A model generated the notes under the pieces. The model was not told where the DNA came from, did no database searches, and saw nothing but the letters and a program-made list of their open reading frames with translations. A DNA stretch of 40,095 bases from a virus: the IMG/VR virus record IMGVR_UViG_3300044274_000136, positions 1 through 40,095 of that record. One strand, written 5' to 3'. This document shows positions 1-17,228 of this stretch, in pieces (position 1 is the stretch's first letter; the number at the start of each line of letters is the position of its first letter). The position numbers were made by a program, and so were the translations under genes.

Positions 1-127
1 TTAGATTTAAAATAGCTGAACGCTACAATAAAAAGTGCATGGCTTACTGTGCTAAAAACGACTATTCTAATGCCTTAAAGGTTTGCAAAAAAGCAGTCAA
101 GGTATGCCCTAGTTATCCATACACGTA
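1..127. repeat. Terminal overlap identical to 39969-40095; the window is one closed circle of 39,968 bp
   Basis: First 127 nt (ttagatttaaaatagctgaacg...ttatccatacacgta) are repeated verbatim as the last 127 nt. Confidence 0.95.
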
Positions 128-482
128 CAATAATATTGCTGTTATTTTTCATAGCTTAGGAAAAAATGAACTAGCTATTAAGTACTACCTAGAGGCTATC
201 AGTTTAAAGCCTGATGATCCTAGTTTTCACTACAACCTAGGTATTGTCTATCAAGCAGAAAATGACGTTACTAATGCAATAAAAGCTTACCAGCATGCCC
301 TAAAATTAGACCCTAGTTTTATGTTAGCTTTTGGCAACCTTACTACTCTTTTACTTAAAAAACCACAATATCAGCAGGCTTTAGAAGGGTTTAGTGGTTT
401 ATTAGCATTGCAACCTGATGAAAATTATCAAAATATGGTTACCATTTTGCAGAAACTTATTGACAAGCAAGTCTTGCAATGA
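39..482 (+). CDS. TPR-repeat protein (TPR-1); true start probably upstream across the circle junction (ATG 39965 or 39950)
   Basis: TPR-like 34-aa repeats, e.g. AIKYYLEAISLKPDDPSFHYNLGIVY and AIKAYQHALKLDPSFMLAFGNL. The frame stays open back to 39941. The last codons (LIDKQVLQ) are encoded by promoter cassette a. Confidence 0.8.
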   Translation: MAYCAKNDYSNALKVCKKAVKVCPSYPYTYNNIAVIFHSLGKNELAIKYYLEAISLKPDDPSFHYNLGIVYQAENDVTNAIKAYQHALKLDPSFMLAFGNLTTLLLKKPQYQQALEGFSGLLALQPDENYQNMVTILQKLIDKQVLQ

Positions 483-488
483 TAAGGT
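460..488 (+). promoter_or_regulatory. Cassette a: TTGACA-17-TAAGGT promoter with palindrome GCAAG-T-CTTGC in the spacer
   Basis: TTGACA 460-465, palindrome 467-477, -10 at 483-488. A conserved leader aataggatataaaa precedes ATG 518. Confidence 0.6.
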
Positions 489-517
489 AAATCCACAAAT
501 AATAGGATATAAAAGTT

Positions 518-931
518 ATGACTGAAATTAAAAAAATAATGGAGCAAGTATACTTACAAGAAAAACACCAAGAGGCTATTCATTGTGGTGAAGCCTTATT
601 GTTATCTGGTTATGAAGCTGATGCAAATCTTTATTTTATGCTTGGCACTTCCTACTCACGGCTTGAACAATATGATAAAGCTATTAGCAATTTAGCAGAA
701 TCCATTAAGTTAAAACCTGATTATGCACAGGCACACCATAACCTTGGTGTTGCTTATGGTGAAAAAGGAGACTATGACAAAGCTGTAGAAGCTTATAACC
801 AAGCTATTAAGCTAGACCCTGATAAGGACTATGGGCACTATAACCTTCGTAATGCTTCTTATACTAAAGAATGGTATGTCAGAGCCATAGTTTGTAGTGA
901 GAAAGGCATTGAGGAGGGTGACAAATCATGA
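518..931 (+). CDS. TPR-repeat protein (TPR-2)
   Basis: AISNLAESIKLKPDYAQAHHNLGVAYGEKGDYDKAVEAYNQAIKLDPD is near-consensus TPR; no other domain is visible. Confidence 0.85.
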   Translation: MTEIKKIMEQVYLQEKHQEAIHCGEALLLSGYEADANLYFMLGTSYSRLEQYDKAISNLAESIKLKPDYAQAHHNLGVAYGEKGDYDKAVEAYNQAIKLDPDKDYGHYNLRNASYTKEWYVRAIVCSEKGIEEGDKS

Positions 932-1101
932 TGGAATTTATAATACCCTTCTCATTAGCATTAATCTTATGTTTTTTTTACACTGTCATTAACCATGAGG
1001 GGTTTTTGAGATATTTGAGCATAGCAACAATGGTTTTTATTGCCGTTGTTGATGTCACTCTTTACTATTCTATGATGGAGGCAAAGAATGCAACTATCTA
1101 G
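928..1101 (+). CDS. Small two-TM membrane protein, 57 aa (below the track cutoff)
   Basis: Hand translation MMEFIIPFSLALILCFFYTVINHEGFLRYLSIATMVFIAVVDVTLYYSMMEAKNATI. Strong SD GAGGAGGG at 911-918; ATGA overlap with the TPR-2 stop. Confidence 0.5.
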   Translation: MMEFIIPFSLALILCFFYTVINHEGFLRYLSIATMVFIAVVDVTLYYSMMEAKNATI

Positions 1102-1228
1102 TACAATTCATTTGATATTACTAGCAGTAGTCTTGTTATTTATCGTAGCTATTGCTGGTGATATTGACACTAAGGAGCAAGCAGACAGGGGGGTGTTATG
1201 GAAGCAAAGGGGGCTTTTACATGGCTAG
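1088..1228 (+). CDS. Small exported/membrane peptide, 46 aa (below the track cutoff)
   Basis: MQLSSTIHLILLAVVLLFIVAIAGDIDTKEQADRGVLWKQRGLLHG: hydrophobic N-terminus plus a hydrophilic tail. SD GGAGG at 1077-1081; overlaps both neighbouring genes. Confidence 0.45.
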   Translation: MQLSSTIHLILLAVVLLFIVAIAGDIDTKEQADRGVLWKQRGLLHG

Positions 1229-1568
1229 AATTACTCAAGAAATGGTCTTGCAAACTGCTAACGATTTATTTGTTGAGCATGGTAGAAAAATTAAGCGTAA
1301 GGAGCTAACAGAAGTTCTTAATTGCAGTTGGTCTGCCATTGATCAAATCTTTGAAACTCGAGAGCCTTTGTATAAATATGTAGAAACCCCCCAAGAGGTG
1401 CAGGAGCGTCATAAGAGGGATAAGGTGGGTGCATACAGGGTTGATCCTAATAGAGGTCACCCAAAAGTTTACAAAAAAGATGGTGGGTATATTGCAGTGG
1501 GGCGAGAAATACCACCTGAATTATTAGAACGTGCAAAACAATTAAAAGAAAGGTATAATTTAAGATAA
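1221..1568 (+). CDS. Hypothetical protein with HTH-like N-terminal domain (paralog family 1 of 3)
   Basis: Start moved to ATG 1221 (SD AAAGGGGG upstream). The N-terminus ITQEMVLQTANDLFVEHGRKIKRKELTEVLNC aligns with the 1593 and 31269 proteins. Confidence 0.6.
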   Translation: MARITQEMVLQTANDLFVEHGRKIKRKELTEVLNCSWSAIDQIFETREPLYKYVETPQEVQERHKRDKVGAYRVDPNRGHPKVYKKDGGYIAVGREIPPELLERAKQLKERYNLR

Positions 1569-1592
1569 TTTTGTTTGGAGAATAATAATAAT

Positions 1593-2171
1593 ATGAGAAC
1601 AATATTGACAGGTCAAGAGATCTACCAGCAAGCGGAAAAGCTTTTTAATGAGAGTAATAAACCTATTACTAAGCAACAGTTGGCAGAGGCTCTTAATTGT
1701 CATTATAGAGTATTAGACAGGTGGCTAAACTCTGGGCATGTTGACAAAGGGATTGAGGTTTTTTTTGAGAAAAGCAGGCGTAAAAGAGTAAGAAAAAACC
1801 TGCTGGTACGAGAAAAAAAGGTTGTTGATATTATTTTAAATTCTGCAAAAAAGTTATCAGATAATGGAAAAAGAAGGGTTACTCAAGTGGACATAGTTAA
1901 TAATACGGAATTGAGCAGATTTATTGTAACAAAATATGTTGCAGGTGGCAAAATGCCAGATGAGTTTTTTGATTACATAGAACTTAACCGCCTTAAGGTA
2001 AATCATGGAAAAAGGAACACTGGCAAAAATGATACTATTGAAGTTTGGAATCCTGACATGAGCAAATATTTAACACAGCATCAAATTGATAGCTTAAGGC
2101 AACATAGCACTACTAAGCAATCAGTTGATCAATTAACCAATTTTAGAAAGGTAGATTATGATAGAGTATGA
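1593..2171 (+). CDS. Hypothetical protein with HTH-like N-terminal domain (paralog family 2 of 3)
   Basis: LTGQEIYQQAEKLFNESNKPITKQQLAEALNCHYRVLDRWL resembles the 1221 protein. ATG 1593 follows GGAG at 1577-1580. Confidence 0.6.
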   Translation: MRTILTGQEIYQQAEKLFNESNKPITKQQLAEALNCHYRVLDRWLNSGHVDKGIEVFFEKSRRKRVRKNLLVREKKVVDIILNSAKKLSDNGKRRVTQVDIVNNTELSRFIVTKYVAGGKMPDEFFDYIELNRLKVNHGKRNTGKNDTIEVWNPDMSKYLTQHQIDSLRQHSTTKQSVDQLTNFRKVDYDRV

Positions 2172-2337
2172 TATACAGCAAGCCGTAAATGAGGCTTATT
2201 TTGCTAATGATCATAGAGAGATAATGCAAAACGTTAGTAATGATAACACCAAGTTACTGGAAGTAGAAGTCGAAGATAACGTTAATAATGATGATAATAA
2301 TAAAAATATAAGAAAAGACCCAACCTATGGAATATAA
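2158..2337 (+). CDS. Small acidic protein, 59 aa (below the track cutoff)
   Basis: MIEYDIQQAVNEAYFANDHREIMQNVSNDNTKLLEVEVEDNVNNDDNNKNIRKDPTYGI. SD AAAGG lies 6 nt upstream; it bridges the two flanking genes by overlaps. Confidence 0.35.
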   Translation: MIEYDIQQAVNEAYFANDHREIMQNVSNDNTKLLEVEVEDNVNNDDNNKNIRKDPTYGI

Positions 2338-3058
2338 TATCCCGCAATTAATATTAGAGAGGCTTAGAGAAGAAAGGGCAAAGTCTCCTAGTAAGAAACG
2401 CAAGGTAGCTTGTGTGATATATTGCCAACAAAAAGACATTATATGTGCTGGTCACAATCAGCGAATAACAGAAAGCCTTACACTTAGCCAGCCCAATTTT
2501 ATCAAGCAATGGTACGCTGAAACTAAAAAGAGAGCGACTTCGTATGATAAAGAGGATTTTGTCCACGCTGAAACGATGGCATGTTATAATTCTTATCGTA
2601 GGAAATTGGGGGTTGAAGATTATCATTATATTAGAAACATCAAAAAAGCGGTAAAAGTTTATGTAACACACAAGCCTTGTGAAGTTTGCGAAAAATATCT
2701 AAATGAGTTTTTTAATGAGCCTATTATCAAAGTTGTTGATTTAGATAAAAAAAAGGCATTCATAAAGCATGATGATGATAAAACCCAATATCAGCATTTA
2801 AGTCCTAAGTTCATTGAAGAGATGGCAGAGATTACCACACAGGGGGCTAAAAAATACGGTGGGGGTAACTACCTGAAAGGTGATGAGCAGGCTCTGATGC
2901 GTCTTTATGACGCCCTCATGAGGCATTTGCAAGCATGGCGTATGGGTGAAGAAGTAGACACTGAAAGTGGGAAGTCTCATTTATCCCATGTTGGTTGTAA
3001 TGCTATGATGATTTATGCGTTGGAGCATAAGCTGAAATTGACTGGTGAAAAAGCGTAA
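2327..3058 (+). CDS. Fusion: dCMP/cytidine deaminase-like zinc domain (N) plus DUF5664-like domain (C; family annotated dATP/dGTP diphosphohydrolase N-terminal)
   Basis: N half: KRKVACVIY..AGHNQ, HAE (VHAETMA), PCxxC (KPCEVCEKYL). C half: KKYGGGNYLKGDEQALMRLYDALMRHLQAWRMGEEVDTESGKSHLSHVGCNAMMIYALE. Confidence 0.7.
   Translation: MEYNIPQLILERLREERAKSPSKKRKVACVIYCQQKDIICAGHNQRITESLTLSQPNFIKQWYAETKKRATSYDKEDFVHAETMACYNSYRRKLGVEDYHYIRNIKKAVKVYVTHKPCEVCEKYLNEFFNEPIIKVVDLDKKKAFIKHDDDKTQYQHLSPKFIEEMAEITTQGAKKYGGGNYLKGDEQALMRLYDALMRHLQAWRMGEEVDTESGKSHLSHVGCNAMMIYALEHKLKLTGEKA
3034..3053 (+). repeat. Direct repeat, left copy (AAATTGACTGGTGAAAAAGC), flanking an 868-bp gene cassette
   Basis: 19/20 identical to 3902-3921; encodes the C-terminus KLTGEKA of the deaminase fusion. 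Confidence 0.8.
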
Positions 3059-3076
3059 AGTAATATCAAAAACTTA

Positions 3077-3105
3077 TTGACAAGCAAGTCTTGCTATGTT
3101 AGGTT
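3077..3105 (+). promoter_or_regulatory. Cassette b: TTGACA-17-TAGGTT with palindrome AGCAAG-T-CTTGCT
   Basis: The 22-nt core cttattgacaagcaagtcttgc is identical in cassettes a, b and c; the leader aacaataggatataaa precedes ATG 3131. Confidence 0.6.
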
Positions 3106-3130
3106 AAAGTAACAAACAATAGGATATAAA

Positions 3131-3616
3131 ATGATTGCTTTAAATGTTGAAAAAATTACTAATGTTTTAGAAAAAGCTGGCTTACGTTACTTTGTTAAAA
3201 CGGCTAATACTGGTACTAATTATATTAATATACCATCATTTGATGTGGTGGTAAGGGTTGCCGATCATAGCGATGCTTATTGTACTAGTGATATTTCGAT
3301 CAGTCCGCTTGATGATAACTACACTGATTTTTTAGAGTTTATGGTGCGTAAAATCGCTGATTATAATGATGATGGTATGTATCAAAACGAGCTAGACATA
3401 TTTACTAAAAGATATAACGCTAGTAAATCTGCCAGAGAAAGGGCTGTTAATGCTAAAATTAAGGCAAGAGATGAGCTTATACAGAAGGCTAAAATTGAAA
3501 AGCAGAGATTGGAAGATCAGGCTAAATGGATTGAGGAAAATTATCCTGATTACTCTACTTTGTCTAAAAGACAAAAAAAATCAATAAGACAAAAATATAA
3601 CAAATCAATGAGATAA
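3131..3616 (+). CDS. Hypothetical protein with Lys/Glu-rich C-terminal helix
   Basis: ORF behind cassette b; no family recognised (motif VRVADHSDAY noted). Confidence 0.6.
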   Translation: MIALNVEKITNVLEKAGLRYFVKTANTGTNYINIPSFDVVVRVADHSDAYCTSDISISPLDDNYTDFLEFMVRKIADYNDDGMYQNELDIFTKRYNASKSARERAVNAKIKARDELIQKAKIEKQRLEDQAKWIEENYPDYSTLSKRQKKSIRQKYNKSMR

Positions 3617-3619
3617 ATT

Positions 3620-3901
3620 ATGACTGAAATTCAAAAACTAAAAGAAGCTGAGGAGTATTACAACCTTGGTAATACTTATCGTACAAAAGGAGATTATGAC
3701 AGAGCTATAGAAGCTTATAAGGAAGCCATTAAATTAGATCCTGATGATGCCAAGGCACACCACGTCCTTGGTGTTACTTATCATATTAAAGAAGAAAATG
3801 CACACTATAACTATGACAAAGCTATAGAAGCATATAAGGAAGCCATTAAATTAGATCCTGATTATGTCAATGCACACTATAACCTTGATAAGTTAAATTA
3901 A
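3620..3901 (+). CDS. TPR-repeat protein (TPR-3), paralog of TPR-2
   Basis: KGDYDRAIEAYKEAIKLDPDDAKAHHVLGVTY and KAIEAYKEAIKLDPDYVNAHYNL. It shares the ATGACTGAAATT start with TPR-2. Confidence 0.85.
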   Translation: MTEIQKLKEAEEYYNLGNTYRTKGDYDRAIEAYKEAIKLDPDDAKAHHVLGVTYHIKEENAHYNYDKAIEAYKEAIKLDPDYVNAHYNLDKLN

Positions 3902-3921
3902 CAAATTAACTGGTGAAAAAG
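3902..3921 (+). repeat. Direct repeat, right copy (AAATTAACTGGTGAAAAAGC)
   Basis: 19/20 identical to 3034-3053; non-coding here, immediately after the TPR-3 stop. Confidence 0.8.
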
Positions 3922-4014
3922 CTAAGGCCACATAAATGCGACCTCGAATACTTCTTTTACTCTAGGTAAATAAGGTAATATTATTATAATGTGTCAGATT
4001 TTTAATAAGCCCTT

Positions 4015-4043
4015 TTACGCAACACACAGTAAAATGGTATATA
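4015..4043 (+). promoter_or_regulatory. Promoter-like element upstream of the baseplate operon (TTACGC-17-TGgTATAAT)
   Basis: Extended -10 TGGTATAAT at 4035-4043. It shares the AGTAAAAT(G/A)GTATATA block with the element at 4080-4108. Confidence 0.4.
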
Positions 4044-4079
4044 ATACTTAAGTATATCATAATTATTAATTGGTGTCTA

Positions 4080-4108
4080 TACACAACACTAGTAAAATAG
4101 TATATACT
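4080..4108 (+). promoter_or_regulatory. Second promoter-like copy (TACACA-17-TATACT), placed so transcription would start at or next to ATG 4115
   Basis: -10 TATACT at 4103-4108 ends 6 nt before ATG 4115; no SD lies between them. Confidence 0.35.
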
Positions 4109-4114
4109 GTTTAC

Positions 4115-4441
4115 ATGCTAAGCATAAACGTAGCAAAACACCCATTCCAGACCTTTAGCGTTACTGTTAATGGTAACCAAAGGCTTGATTTTACGCTAAA
4201 ACATATATCTTCTATGGGGTATTGGTTGGCTAATTTATCGACCAATGACGTTAGCATTAATGGCATAAGGCTAGTACTGGCAGATAACATTTATTCACAG
4301 TTTATTAACAAGATCAATTGTGGTTTACAGATTGCATCACGCTATAGCGTTGACCCTAGCCTTATTGATGATTTTTCAAGTGGTAGGTATGAATTTAACG
4401 TACTAGATCAAAACGAGGCAAAACAAGCGTTAAATGTTTAA
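4115..4441 (+). CDS. Baseplate-module protein, function unknown
   Basis: First ATG of the track ORF 4070-4441; overlaps the next baseplate gene (ATGTTTAA junction). Confidence 0.55.
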   Translation: MLSINVAKHPFQTFSVTVNGNQRLDFTLKHISSMGYWLANLSTNDVSINGIRLVLADNIYSQFINKINCGLQIASRYSVDPSLIDDFSSGRYEFNVLDQNEAKQALNV

Positions 4442-5294
4442 TTTAGAATATCAATTAATCATAACGTTGCCAGAGGGGGAACAAATAATAATCCCCACAG
4501 AATTTACTTGCACGTTTAGTATCTCAAGGCAGAACATGTCCTCAAGTGCTAACAATGCAACCTTTAGTGTTTATAATCTTAACCCCAGTAATCGTAATAA
4601 GATATTTAAAGATGCATATAACCCTAGTAGATACATTAGGCTAGAGTTTTTTGCAGGATATTCTGGACAAATCAGCTCGATTTACAAGGGTTCAATTGTT
4701 CAAGCCCAAACCAAGCCGTCGGGTAATGACAATGTTTTAGAAATTGAATCACAAGACGGCATGTTTGATAGTATTACTACTCAAAGCAACGTTTCTTTTC
4801 CTGCGGGAACGTCAAGAAAAGAGGTGGCGGAAAAGTTAGTAGGGGATTTTCCTAATGTAGAGATGGGCGGTGCTGGTAAGAGCCTTAATGGTACATATAA
4901 ACGCCCGTATGTTACTGAAGGCAATACTTATGACGCTTTAAAAAACGTATGTAATGCAAATTTATACATTGATGGGGAAACAATACATTTCTTGGCAGAT
5001 GATGAGGCTTTAAGGGCTGGTGCTACTGTTATCAGTTCAGAAACTGGCTTGGCAAGTAGTGTTGTTAAACAAGATACAACATTAAAAATAGAAACAAAAA
5101 TTTTAACATTGGGGGCAACAGTAGGTTCAATGATTGAATTAATATCAACAAGAAACCCAATATATAATGGTCAATATAAGGTCGTTGGAGTAGAGCATAA
5201 CGGTACTATTAGTGAAGGTGTAAATAGTGCCACAAATAGCTTGATAACTGTTTTAGACACCAATACTCGCTTTGGAGCAACTGAATTAGTATGA
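4434..5294 (+). CDS. Putative baseplate hub protein (reduced gpD/Mu gp44/XkdQ-like)
   Basis: Lies immediately upstream of the spike gene. The pattern ATFSVYNLNPSNRNKIF..IRLEFFAGYSGQISSIYKGSI is typical of such hub proteins. Confidence 0.55.
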   Translation: MFNLEYQLIITLPEGEQIIIPTEFTCTFSISRQNMSSSANNATFSVYNLNPSNRNKIFKDAYNPSRYIRLEFFAGYSGQISSIYKGSIVQAQTKPSGNDNVLEIESQDGMFDSITTQSNVSFPAGTSRKEVAEKLVGDFPNVEMGGAGKSLNGTYKRPYVTEGNTYDALKNVCNANLYIDGETIHFLADDEALRAGATVISSETGLASSVVKQDTTLKIETKILTLGATVGSMIELISTRNPIYNGQYKVVGVEHNGTISEGVNSATNSLITVLDTNTRFGATELV

Positions 5295-16749: not shown

Positions 16750-16778
16750 TTGACAAGCAAGTCTTGCTATGTTAGGTT
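16750..16778 (+). promoter_or_regulatory. Cassette c: TTGACA-17-TAGGTT with palindrome AGCAAG-T-CTTGCT
   Basis: Identical over the 32 nt cttattgacaagcaagtcttgctatgttaggt to cassette b; lies 16 nt after the portal stop. Confidence 0.6.
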
Positions 16779-16804: not shown

Positions 16805-17203
16805 ATGACTGAAGACATACTAAAATACAAAATGGAAGACGGTCTAAAGATCATCTTAAAAGATGGTAAAGGTTCGTATCTTAGCTCTAGCGCTGAATAT
16901 TACGACCCAGTATATAAATATTATAAACGTAACTCATTGTTAGTCATTGAAGGACAAGGACTCTATAAGTATACACATGAATTATCAGACGTAGAGGCGA
17001 TAATAGAGTACAAATTAATTACAACAATGATTTCTGAGACGGGAAAGGAGTTTCGTTATTTTCGTGCATTTAAAGACAAAAAACATATTGATAGCAATGA
17101 TGATAATGAAATTTGCTTTAATGAAATAGAGGCAAAGATAAAAGAAATTAAAGAGGAATATGAAGAGATGTCGTCTTATGCAAAACAAGTAACTAACACT
17201 TGA
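16805..17203 (+). CDS. Hypothetical protein (island gene 1)
   Basis: ORF behind cassette c. It begins ATGACTGAA like TPR-2, TPR-3 and erf. Its TGA stop lies inside the TTGACA of cassette d. Confidence 0.6.
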   Translation: MTEDILKYKMEDGLKIILKDGKGSYLSSSAEYYDPVYKYYKRNSLLVIEGQGLYKYTHELSDVEAIIEYKLITTMISETGKEFRYFRAFKDKKHIDSNDDNEICFNEIEAKIKEIKEEYEEMSSYAKQVTNT

Positions 17204-17228
17204 CAAGTAAATCTTGCAATGTTATAGT
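17200..17228 (+). promoter_or_regulatory. Cassette d: TTGACA-17-TATAGT
   Basis: ttgacaagtaaatcttgcaatgttatagt followed by the leader taagtaacaaaaaataaggatatatt and ATG 17255. Confidence 0.6.

What the first reader, a model, noticed from the sequence alone, without database searches (positions are those of the whole stretch)
2327..3058. Fusion of a dCMP-deaminase-like domain to a DUF5664-like domain
Residues 1-140 carry the deaminase zinc signature (HAE at VHAETMA, PCxxC at KPCEVCEKYL, KRKVACVIY..AGHNQ). Residues ~150-243 carry the K(K)YG..NY.KG....Y.DAL.RHL.AW..GE..D.ESG.SHL.H...NA motif of a phage family annotated as the N-terminal domain of dATP/dGTP diphosphohydrolases. I do not know this pair as a described fusion. 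Nucleotide-pool editing is used by phages for modified DNA and, in the opposite direction, by bacterial dCTP-deaminase and dGTPase defences. A phage enzyme coupling pyrimidine deamination to a purine-nucleotide-hydrolase-associated domain could serve pool rebalancing, DNA modification or counter-defence. The gene has no SD of its own and is coupled to a 59-aa acidic ORF (2158-2337).
Basis: partly seen in the sequence, partly recalled or inferred. Interest (0 to 1): 0.6.

Follow-up and report, generated by a model that had tools for sequence, protein, structure and literature searches.

The report
Phage dCMP-deaminase / dNTP-pyrophosphatase fusion enzyme
A marine phage gene joins a cytosine-nucleotide deaminase to a DNA-building-block pyrophosphatase, probably to turn C nucleotides into the precursor of T; the same fusion is common but untested in other phages, where it sits beside genes that point to modified cytosine in DNA.

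Summary
ORF 2327-3058 (243 aa) has an intact zinc deaminase domain (PF00383; HAE, PCxxC) and a PF18909/DUF5664 domain. Both pass Pfam's cut-offs and fold confidently.

Two parts of the reading need correction.
- PF18909 is a catalytic domain, not just an accessory N-terminal one. The stand-alone Arthrobacter phage Wayne enzyme hydrolyses dATP, dUTP and dGTP to dNMPs (NAR 2026), and the window's domain is 41% identical to it.
- The fusion is not rare. At least 115 protein clusters carry it, it is PHROG 2369, and RefSeq calls the KF-1 copy "dCMP deaminase". I found no biochemical study. This scan flagged the same fusion in three other genomes.

In 17/17 distant relatives the gene follows DNA polymerase and a thymidylate-synthase homologue, with a PRA-PH-type pyrophosphatase detected in 12. 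That synthase homologue always has Asp at the Asn177 position, the mark of dCMP-specific enzymes in cytosine-modified phages. Triple fusions (PRA-PH + deaminase + PF18909) also exist.

The window's complete 40-kb, 36% GC genome has none of these partners. The gene ends a promoter-cassette-bounded accessory operon.

Most likely role (inferred): convert dCTP/dCMP and dUTP to dUMP for the host thymidylate synthase. I class it as a new variant of a known kind, of moderate interest.

The parts
2327..3058 (+). Fusion gene, 243 aa: dCMP-type zinc deaminase plus PF18909/DUF5664 dNTP pyrophosphohydrolase
   Evidence: ORF. Pfam hits for both domains above the gathering cut-offs. AF2 model with mean pLDDT 92.1. 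The start Met and MEYN/MECN N-terminus are conserved in homologues of 70-87% identity.
2327..2737 (+). Deaminase domain (about residues 1-137). Catalytic and zinc residues are H80-A81-E82 (nt 2564-2572) and P117-C118-x-x-C121 (nt 2675-2689). S20, K24/R25 and N44 are also conserved. There are two subfamily-specific helical insertions (about residues 49-76 and 92-108).
   Evidence: Invariant columns in the alignment of 22 fusion proteins. The family profile's four best PDB matches are dCMP deaminases 4P9C, 2HVV, 1VQ2 and 2W4L, E 2.5e-14 to 2.2e-10. Foldseek matches the human, PBCV-1 and T4 dCMP deaminases.
2759..3031 (+). PF18909 (DUF5664) domain, residues 145-235. It has a conserved N-terminal strand motif F145-x-K147-x-D149-x-x-K152 and a helical core carrying G173-A174-K-K176-Y177, N181, R199-H200, G207-E-x-x-D211, H218 and H221.
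   Evidence: Pfam 83.4 bits. Six-frame family search 2765-3031, E 8e-26. Nearly invariant columns across 88-90 homologues. 41% identity to the assayed Wayne enzyme. Domain model pLDDT 94.8. Best solved fold is 2P06, Z 7.2.
2158..2337 (+). Conserved 59-aa acidic protein of unknown function. Its stop overlaps the fusion's start codon by 11 nt.
   Evidence: ORF. 22 homologous clusters of 56-59 aa, 63-100% identical, several on contigs whose lengths match those holding fusion homologues. No Pfam or PADLOC hit.
1575..2171 (+). 198-aa protein of unknown function. It overlaps the start of the 59-aa ORF and belongs to the same operon.
   Evidence: ORF. A 12-member 90% cluster, including contigs of 45144 and 2473 bp whose lengths match those holding fusion homologues P0003 and P0007. 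No PHROG or PADLOC hit.
460..481 (+). Promoter-palindrome cassette copy (TTGACAAGCAAGTCTTGCAATG) that opens the block of genes ending with the fusion gene
Evidence: Pattern search: 4 copies in the genome against 0 expected.
3077..3098 (+). Next promoter-palindrome cassette copy, 19 nt after the fusion gene's stop. It marks the end of the block.
   Evidence: Pattern search and the sequence itself.
3035..3054 (+). The last 20 coding nt of the fusion gene, repeated at 3903-3922 (95% identical). The two copies bracket the 868-bp cassette-plus-two-gene insert.
Evidence: the repeat finder family D3.

Best explanation
The gene encodes a two-headed pyrimidine deoxynucleotide enzyme.

The C-terminal PF18909 domain is a metal-dependent dNTP pyrophosphohydrolase (dNTP -> dNMP + PPi). 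In this context it most likely acts on dCTP and/or dUTP. The N-terminal domain is a zinc dCMP-type deaminase (dCMP -> dUMP + NH3). Together they funnel deoxycytidine nucleotides, and any dUTP, into dUMP.

This phage has no thymidylate synthase of its own, so the host enzyme would convert that dUMP to dTMP. That would raise the dTTP:dCTP ratio for replicating a 36% GC genome and keep dUTP low. The net chemistry, dCTP -> dUMP, is that of T4 gp56 plus Cd, or of the bifunctional dCTP deaminase-dUTPase, but built from unrelated folds.

Shown here:
- Both domains are present with their catalytic signatures, and both fold confidently.
- The deaminase half groups with true dCMP deaminases.
- The PF18909 half is homologous to an assayed dNTP pyrophosphohydrolase.
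- The fusion family is embedded in pyrimidine-metabolism modules in other phages.

Inferred: the substrates, the order of the two steps, and the physiological role in this phage.
For: - Both Pfam domains score above their cut-offs.
- H80-A81-E82 and P117-C118-x-x-C121 are invariant in 22 fusion proteins, and 127 of 130 two-domain homologues keep the motifs and the domain order.
- The family profile hits four dCMP deaminases first in the PDB (4P9C, 2HVV, 1VQ2, 2W4L), 3 to 6 orders of magnitude ahead of TadA. Foldseek agrees, and also finds the PBCV-1 dCMP/dCTP deaminase.
- PF18909 is the only Pfam domain of the Wayne enzyme ALY10775.1. That enzyme converts dATP, dUTP and dGTP to dNMPs (kcat 0.48, 0.22 and 0.05 per s; PMC12884076). 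The window's domain is 41% identical to it, with the signature residues shared.
- In 17/17 distant fusion loci the gene lies downstream of a TS-family gene on the same strand, directly after the PRA-PH-type pyrophosphatase gene where one was detected. Triple fusions PRA-PH + deaminase + PF18909 exist.
- The phage genome is complete and has no ThyA, ThyX, dUTPase, PRA-PH or MazG. Its GC content is 34-39%.
Against: - No activity was measured for any fusion protein.
- The one assayed PF18909 enzyme was reported active on dATP, dUTP and dGTP, and dCTP was not among its reported substrates. A dCTPase role is therefore an extrapolation. The dUTP -> dUMP role rests on firmer ground.
- In the relatives the TS-like partner carries Asp177 and so is probably dCMP-specific, not a dUMP consumer. 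The conserved neighbourhood therefore supports pyrimidine or cytosine metabolism in general, not dUMP supply to TS specifically.
- The window's subfamily has two insertions in the deaminase domain and is only about 30-35% identical to the KF-1 type, so its function may have shifted.
- The host is unknown, so its need for extra dUMP cannot be judged.
Confidence: 0.5

Rival explanations
1. It is a component of a modified-cytosine pathway. As in T4 (gp56 dCTPase, gp42 dCMP hydroxymethylase, Cd deaminase), the pyrophosphatase domain would remove canonical dCTP. The deaminase would either process surplus dCMP or act on 5-substituted dCMP (5-methyl- or 5-hydroxymethyl-dCMP, giving dTMP or 5-hm-dUMP). 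The window's copy would be a remnant or a re-used part of that pathway.
For: - All 17 TS homologues next to the fusion in the relatives have Asp at the Asn177 position.
- Asp177 switches TS to dCMP, and it marks phage contigs with modified cytosine. TS, PRA-PH and dCMP-deaminase domains co-occur on such contigs (PMC8670742).
- DUF5664 is itself enriched in modified contigs (24 vs 157, p about 3e-19; supplement).
Against: - The window's complete genome has no TS-family, ThyX or PRA-PH/MazG gene, so there is no enzyme to make a 5-substituted pyrimidine nucleotide.
- The MetaGPA enrichment list also contains generic lytic-phage genes such as gp23 and gp32, so the DUF5664 enrichment is not specific.
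- No DNA-composition data were found for KF-1 or Amaethon.
Confidence: 0.17
2. The pyrophosphatase domain acts on purine dNTPs (dATP/dGTP), as in Wayne and the SH-Ab 15497 MazZ, and the deaminase acts independently. The protein would then be a general pool-rebalancing enzyme, or one that starves the host or a competitor of dNTPs, and not a dUMP funnel.
For: - The only assayed PF18909 proteins prefer dATP, or dATP/dGTP (PMC12884076).
- The window's domain superposes on the MazZ PF18909 domain at 2.4 A over 94 residues.
Against: - No purZ, datZ or DUF550 was noticed among the genes annotated here, though no dedicated search for them was run.
- The fusion partner and every conserved neighbour in the relatives are pyrimidine enzymes.
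- The Wayne enzyme also hydrolyses dUTP at about half its dATP rate.
Confidence: 0.15
3. It is a defence, superinfection-exclusion or counter-defence factor. Either a phage-borne nucleotide-depleting enzyme blocks competing phages, as bacterial dCTP-deaminase defence does, or an enzyme offsets host dNTP-depletion defences. The overlapping 59-aa acidic protein could act as a modulator.
For: - The gene lies in a cassette-bounded accessory operon with unknown small genes.
- It is tightly coupled to a conserved acidic 59-aa protein.
- Zinc dCMP-type deaminases can act on dCTP: PBCV-1 bi-DCD and CDADC1 appear among the structural and profile matches. The KF-1 homologue gives a very weak, far sub-threshold hit to the NCBIfam anti-phage dCTP deaminase model (22.5 bits against a cut-off of 400).
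Against: - There is no PADLOC hit for the fusion or its neighbours, and no NCBIfam hit for the window protein.
- Most family members sit in the replication modules of lytic-type 40-45-kb phages next to the DNA polymerase. That fits phage DNA synthesis, not defence.
Confidence: 0.1
4. The deaminase edits polynucleotides (tRNA, mRNA or DNA), like TadA, MafB19-type or APOBEC-type deaminases, and not free nucleotides.
For: Sub-threshold Pfam hits to the MafB19-like, Bd3614-like and APOBEC families for the window protein, and above-threshold MafB19 hits for relatives. TadA structures appear in the profile search at E 5.6e-8 and weaker.
Against: - dCMP deaminases outrank all editing deaminases in the profile search.
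- The motif around S20, K24/R25 and V27-G aligns with the (R/K)S-x-C-x-(R/K)-x-x-VGA segment of the dCMP deaminases in that alignment.
- Fusion to a dNTP pyrophosphatase and linkage to TS-family genes point to free nucleotides as substrates.
Confidence: 0.05

Closest known systems
Uncharacterised deaminase-PF18909 fusion proteins of KF-1/Amaethon-type podophages (PHROG 2369; e.g. Edwardsiella phage KF-1 YP_006990457.1 'dCMP deaminase', Dickeya phage Amaethon AWD90274.1)
   Same: They share the domain order, the invariant HAE/PCxxC and PF18909 residues, and the junction motif F-x-K-x-D-x-x-K. A single origin of all the fusions is not rejected (p-AU 0.86).
   Different: Identity is only 28-37%. 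The window's subfamily has two helical insertions in the deaminase domain. Its genome lacks the DNA polymerase, Asp177 TS homologue and PRA-PH pyrophosphatase genes that flank the relatives' copies. Here the gene sits in an accessory operon of a phage with XRE-type repressors, Erf and RuvC.
Stand-alone DUF5664/PF18909 dNTP pyrophosphohydrolase of Arthrobacter phage Wayne (ALY10775.1; Nucleic Acids Res 2026, gkag079) and the DUF5664-DUF550 MazZ of Acinetobacter phage SH-Ab 15497
   Same: The PF18909 domain is homologous: 41% identity over 70 residues, E 9e-12, with a 2.4 A superposition on the MazZ domain. The expected chemistry is dNTP -> dNMP + PPi with a divalent metal.
   Different: Those enzymes serve 2-aminoadenine (Z) genomes and prefer dATP or dGTP. 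They are fused to nothing recognisable, or to DUF550, and never to a deaminase in that paper. Substrate preference is unknown here.
dCMP deaminases (T4 Cd 1VQ2, cyanophage S-TIM5 4P9C, S. mutans 2HVV, human DCTD 2W4L; PBCV-1 bifunctional dCMP/dCTP deaminase 7FH4)
   Same: The zinc site, the fold and the best profile matches are shared. The role is phage-encoded supply of dUMP.
   Different: The window protein has an extra C-terminal catalytic domain and two insertions. It is unknown whether it keeps hexamer formation and dCTP/dTTP allostery. No NCBIfam equivalog model matches it.
[quoted passage not shown]
   Same: The proposed net reaction is the same: dCTP (and dUTP) -> dUMP for thymidylate synthesis, with removal of dUTP.
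   Different: The folds are unrelated. Dcd:dut is a single-site enzyme of the dUTPase-superfamily beta-barrel trimer type, and no PF00692 match exists in this genome. Here two separate catalytic domains are joined. The resemblance is functional analogy only, and it is inferred.

Membership tests
Cytidine/deoxycytidylate deaminase superfamily, dCMP-deaminase branch (PF00383) | Zinc-binding and catalytic motifs H/C-A-E ... P-C-x-x-C | tested here: met
   H80-A81-E82 and P117-C118-E-V-C121 read from the sequence. They are invariant in 22 fusion proteins.
Cytidine/deoxycytidylate deaminase superfamily, dCMP-deaminase branch (PF00383) | Score above Pfam's gathering cut-off | tested here: met
   41.3 bits against a cut-off of 25.
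Cytidine/deoxycytidylate deaminase superfamily, dCMP-deaminase branch (PF00383) | Closer to dCMP deaminases than to tRNA, cytidine, cytosine or APOBEC deaminases | tested here: met
   In the family-profile search against the PDB, the four best hits are dCMP deaminases (E 2.5e-14 to 2.2e-10), followed by TadA at 5.6e-8. Foldseek mixes dCMP and cytidine deaminases.
Cytidine/deoxycytidylate deaminase superfamily, dCMP-deaminase branch (PF00383) | dCMP -> dUMP activity with dCTP/dTTP allosteric control | not testable with these tools
   This needs an enzyme assay. No NCBIfam equivalog model matches the window protein.
PF18909 / DUF5664 dNTP pyrophosphohydrolases | Score above Pfam's gathering cut-off, with the family's nearly invariant residues present | tested here: met
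   83.4 bits against a cut-off of 27. K147, D149, K152, G173, A174, K176, Y177, N181, A196, R199, H200, G207, D211, H218 and H221 are all present.
PF18909 / DUF5664 dNTP pyrophosphohydrolases | Homology to a biochemically characterised member | tested here: met
   41% identity, E 9e-12, to Wayne ALY10775.1, whose only Pfam domain is PF18909. Its activity is reported in PMC12884076.
PF18909 / DUF5664 dNTP pyrophosphohydrolases | dNTP -> dNMP + PPi activity, and which dNTPs are taken | not testable with these tools
   This needs an enzyme assay.
MazG-like all-alpha NTP pyrophosphatase superfamily (for the PF18909 domain) | Four-helix MazG-type fold and detectable profile similarity | tested here: inconclusive
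   The best solved fold by two aligners is 2P06 AF_0060 (Foldseek prob 0.92, TM 0.54/0.65; VIA Z 7.2, rmsd 3.5 A, 85 residues aligned of an 88-residue chain). Z is below the level that is safe for helical bundles. hhalign against the PRA-PH-like partner family gives prob 0.7%. There is no PDB hit by profile. That 2P06 belongs to the MazG-like superfamily is from my memory.
KF-1/Amaethon-type module: DNA polymerase - Asp177 TS homologue - PRA-PH pyrophosphatase - fusion | TS-family gene and PRA-PH/MazG gene next to the fusion gene | tested here: not met
   The complete genome has no PF00303, PF02511, PF01503 or PF03819 match. tblastn with the Amaethon and KF-1 proteins also finds nothing. The module is present in 17/17 distant fusion loci, with the PRA-PH gene detected in 12 of them.
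Bifunctional dCTP deaminase-dUTPase (dUTPase superfamily) | dUTPase-superfamily fold | tested here: not met
   There is no PF00692 match in the genome. The protein's two domains are a zinc deaminase fold and a helical PF18909 fold.
Anti-phage dCTP deaminase / known defence systems | Match to PADLOC or NCBIfam defence models | tested here: not met
   The window protein has no PADLOC and no NCBIfam hit. The KF-1 homologue scores 22.5 bits against a cut-off of 400 for NF041025.

The most novel reading that the evidence does not exclude
The deaminase-PF18909 fusion is a self-contained dCTP -> dUMP converter that evolved independently of the dUTPase-fold Dcd:dut enzymes. In the common KF-1/Amaethon-type module it would work with an Asp177 TS homologue in an undescribed pyrimidine route: either dCMP -> 5-methyl- or 5-hydroxymethyl-dCMP -> deamination to dTMP or 5-hm-dUMP, or full cytosine replacement. 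If so, cultured phages such as KF-1 and Amaethon would carry unreported modified bases. The window's orphan copy, coupled to a conserved 59-aa acidic protein, would be a regulated stand-alone version.
Probability: 0.2. Interest if true: 0.65.

Novelty: new variant of a known kind. Interest (0 to 1): 0.42.

Why it matters
Phage control of dNTP pools underlies DNA modification, AT/GC balance and the arms race with nucleotide-depleting defences.

This fusion family is widespread: at least 115 protein clusters, including cultured Edwardsiella and Dickeya phages. It is annotated only as "dCMP deaminase" or "hypothetical", and no member has been assayed. Testing it would show whether PF18909 domains can be pyrimidine-specific, and whether phages built a dCTP -> dUMP converter from parts unrelated to the classical Dcd:dut enzyme.

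The by-product finding may matter more than the window's gene. All 17 fusion-linked thymidylate-synthase homologues carry the dCMP-specific Asp177. This predicts modified cytosine, or an unusual thymidylate route, in a whole group of roughly 40-kb podophages that are available in culture.

The window's copy, which has no partner genes, offers a minimal natural test case.

Tried and rejected
- **Solved relatives of the PF18909 half.** Single-sequence and profile searches of the PDB found nothing. Only fold searches gave a lead (2P06).
- **Link to MazG/PRA-PH.** The profile-profile comparison of PF18909 with the PRA-PH-like partner was negative, so I did not file PF18909 under MazG.
- **Partner pyrophosphatase.** Its profile had no PDB hit.
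- **DNA context of the close relatives (63-87% identity).** The metagenome-contig scan returned only one distant PF18909 hit. A viral-contig scan with the neighbouring baseplate-hub protein found nothing. Co-occurrence of the 59-aa ORF and the fusion in relatives therefore rests on matching contig lengths, not on inspected DNA.
- **Host.** The genome-contig scan found no close relative of the window protein and only one full fusion, in an uncultured gammaproteobacterial MAG contig of 37 kb. The host stays unknown.
- **Independent origin of the window's fusion.** The free quick tree suggested it. I rejected it as unsupported, because the tree with all fusions held together is better.
- **Defence reading.** PADLOC was negative.
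- **Promoters.** The generic promoter and terminator scan of 1-4500 was no better than chance. The cassette was found by direct pattern search instead.
- **Naming by PHROGs.** PHROGs calls the Asp177 partner simply "thymidylate synthase", which does not help with its specificity.
Full report
**1. Observation**

ORF 2327-3058 (+ strand, 243 aa) is present as described. The zinc-deaminase signature is read directly from the sequence: H80-A81-E82 at nt 2564-2572 and P117-C118-E-V-C121 at nt 2675-2689.

Pfam supports both halves above its curated cut-offs, whether the protein is searched whole or in halves:
- PF00383, residues 14-128, 41.3 bits against a cut-off of 25.
- PF18909 dGTP_diPhyd_N (the former DUF5664), residues 147-235, 83.4 bits against a cut-off of 27.

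PHROGs agrees. phrog_2369 ("dCMP deaminase") matches residues 18-211 across its whole profile, so that family already contains the fusion. An AlphaFold2 model built on 90 sequences has mean pLDDT 92.1. It shows an alpha/beta deaminase domain (residues 7-136), a less confident linker, and a helical C-terminal domain. pTM is 0.61, so the relative orientation of the domains is not fixed.

**2. What the two domains are**

A profile of 22 fusion proteins finds four true dCMP deaminases as its best solved relatives: cyanophage S-TIM5 4P9C, S. mutans 2HVV, T4 Cd 1VQ2 and human DCTD 2W4L, with E from 2.5e-14 to 2.2e-10. They rank ahead of TadA, APOBEC and cytosine deaminases. Foldseek matches dCMP deaminases, including the PBCV-1 bifunctional dCMP/dCTP deaminase, along with cytidine deaminases.

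The PF18909 half has no solved relative by sequence. Folded alone it gives pLDDT 94.8. Its best solved match by two independent aligners is 2P06, A. fulgidus AF_0060:
- Foldseek: prob 0.92, TM 0.54/0.65.
- VIA-align: Z 7.2, rmsd 3.5 A, 85 residues aligned of an 88-residue chain, 1.3 above the next row.

From memory, 2P06 is classed with the all-alpha NTP pyrophosphatases. A profile-profile comparison with a PRA-PH-type family was negative, so I treat membership of the MazG superfamily as inconclusive.

Function does not depend on that question. A 2026 paper (PMC12884076) shows that the stand-alone DUF5664 protein of Arthrobacter phage Wayne converts dATP, dUTP and dGTP to dNMPs. I located that protein (L104:7627-8223). 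PF18909 is its only Pfam domain, and the window's C-terminal domain is 41% identical to it, with the signature residues shared. PF18909 is therefore a catalytic dNTP pyrophosphohydrolase domain, not merely an "N-terminal domain".

**3. How common the fusion is**

- tblastn against 50,697 phage records finds the full two-domain protein in Dickeya phage Amaethon and in Edwardsiella phages KF-1, IW-1, ETP-1 and ZHX. RefSeq names the KF-1 protein "dCMP deaminase".
- An exhaustive phmmer search of 1.84 billion representatives gives 12,846 hits, mostly PF18909 alone. At least 11 separate 50%-identity clusters among the top 150 are fusions.
- A profile search of the 5.8-billion-protein collection lists at least 115 clusters with PF00383 + PF18909 among its best 120, many on contigs of 39-45 kb.
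- Of 130 two-domain proteins that I hold, 127 keep the order and the HAE...PCxxC motifs.
- Three proteins (four with P0254) are triple fusions, PRA-PH + deaminase + PF18909.
- No paper describing or testing the fusion was found.
- Earlier first-reader notes of this scan report the same fusion in three other genomes.

**4. Context in the relatives**

In Amaethon, KF-1 and 15 IMG/VR contigs the order is DNA polymerase, a TS-family gene, a PRA-PH-type pyrophosphatase (detected in 12 of the 17) and then the fusion, all on one strand.

The TS homologue keeps its catalytic Cys, but in 17 of 17 cases it has Asp where ThyA has Asn177. The MetaGPA study (PMC8670742) recalls that Asn177Asp switches TS from dUMP to dCMP. 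It also shows that Asp177 TS genes mark phage contigs with modified cytosine, and that TS, PRA-PH and dCMP-deaminase domains co-occur there. Its supplement lists DUF5664 as enriched as well, although generic lytic-phage genes are enriched too.

The common form of the fusion therefore belongs to a module that parallels T4's gp56/gp42/Cd. These phages may carry modified cytosine or use an unusual thymidylate route. That is a prediction, not a result.

**5. Context in the window**

- The record is a complete 40,095-bp phage genome with direct terminal repeats and 34-39% GC.
- It carries XRE-type repressors, a replication initiator, Erf, a RuvC-like resolvase, and baseplate and tail genes.
- It has no ThyA, ThyX, dUTPase, PRA-PH or MazG, and no second PF18909 domain.
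- The fusion is the last gene of a block bounded by two copies of a promoter-palindrome cassette, at 460 and 3077. There are four copies in the genome against none expected. An earlier follow-up linked these cassettes to gene swapping.
- The last 20 coding nucleotides of the fusion gene recur at 3903-3922, bracketing the next cassette-led gene pair.
- The missing SD is not unusual in this genome.

**6. Relationship of the window's subfamily to the rest**

Ten clusters of 63-100% identity form the window's subfamily. It is 28-37% identical to the KF-1 type and has two helical insertions in the deaminase domain.

On a PF18909 tree the fusion label is strongly clustered, needing 6 changes against about 39 when shuffled. 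The free tree places the window's clade near stand-alone proteins, with weak support. A tree that holds all fusions together is better by 55.7 log-likelihood units (p-AU 0.86). A single fusion event is thus not rejected, and independent origin cannot be claimed.

**7. Mechanism**

The best-supported reading (confidence about 0.5 for the specifics) has three parts:
- The PF18909 domain hydrolyses dCTP and/or dUTP to the monophosphate.
- The deaminase converts dCMP to dUMP.
- The host thymidylate synthase uses that dUMP, which suits an AT-rich phage that brings no other nucleotide enzyme.

The domain identities are shown. The substrates and the physiological role are inferred. The weakest link is dCTP as a substrate, because the only assayed PF18909 enzyme was not reported to take it.

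The rivals are listed with their tests: a role in a modified-cytosine pathway, purine-dNTP hydrolysis, defence or counter-defence, and polynucleotide editing. PADLOC and NCBIfam give no support to the defence reading.

**8. Verdict**

The protein is a divergent, partner-less member of a widespread but biochemically untested fusion family made from two known enzyme kinds. I class it as a new variant of a known kind, of moderate interest.

This prevented direct inspection of the closest relatives' DNA.

Noticed in passing
L001:4596-5411, L002:4613-5410 and the TS genes of L003-L011, L014, L018, L020, L021, L025, L068: All 17 'thymidylate synthase' genes next to the fusion in KF-1/Amaethon-type phages have Asp at the Asn177 (dUMP-specificity) position (G-x-P-S-D) while keeping the catalytic Cys. 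This predicts dCMP-specific methylases or hydroxymethylases, and possibly modified cytosine, in cultured phages that are annotated as having plain TS.
   Followed up: partly
P0075, P0096, P0101, P0254 (379-408 aa metagenomic proteins): These are triple fusions: PRA-PH (MazG-like pyrophosphatase) + dCMP-type deaminase + PF18909 in one polypeptide. They reproduce the gene order seen as separate genes in Amaethon and KF-1.
   Followed up: partly
window 2158-2337: A conserved 59-aa acidic protein (22 clusters, 63-100% identical) is translationally coupled to the fusion gene. It has no family assignment. More clusters of it were seen than of the fusion subfamily, so it may also occur without the fusion.
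   Followed up: partly
window 460-481, 3077-3098, 16750-16771, 17200-17221: Four copies of a TTGACA-palindrome promoter cassette (0 expected by chance). Two of them bound the block that ends with the fusion gene.
   Followed up: partly
window 3035-3054 and 3903-3922: A 20-nt direct repeat (95% identical). The end of the fusion gene's coding sequence recurs after the TPR-3 stop, bracketing an 868-bp cassette-plus-two-gene unit. It looks like an insertion or recombination footprint.
   Followed up: partly
window 1218-1568 and 1575-2171: Two neighbouring genes of unknown function begin with similar helix-rich segments (...ELTEVLNCSW... and ...QLAEALNCHY...). They may be paralogous DNA-binding domains. 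Neither has a PHROG hit.
   Followed up: no
A5 (PRA-PH-like partner proteins), C-terminal 30 residues, against the first 25 residues of PF18909 domains: The partner pyrophosphatase ends with K-A-N-D-G-D-K-G-x-x-F-V-P-P-E-P. This resembles the K-x-D-x-x-K-x-R-x-x-L-x-P-P motif that opens the PF18909 domain (hhalign E 0.077 over 26 columns). It is not significant, but it could be a shared strand or phosphate-binding element.
   Followed up: no
P0016 (264 aa): This is the closest relative of the window's deaminase half outside the subfamily (46% identity). It carries a DUF3310-like C-terminus (21.9 bits, below Pfam's cut-off of 24) in place of PF18909, which hints at domain swapping on this deaminase type.
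   Followed up: no
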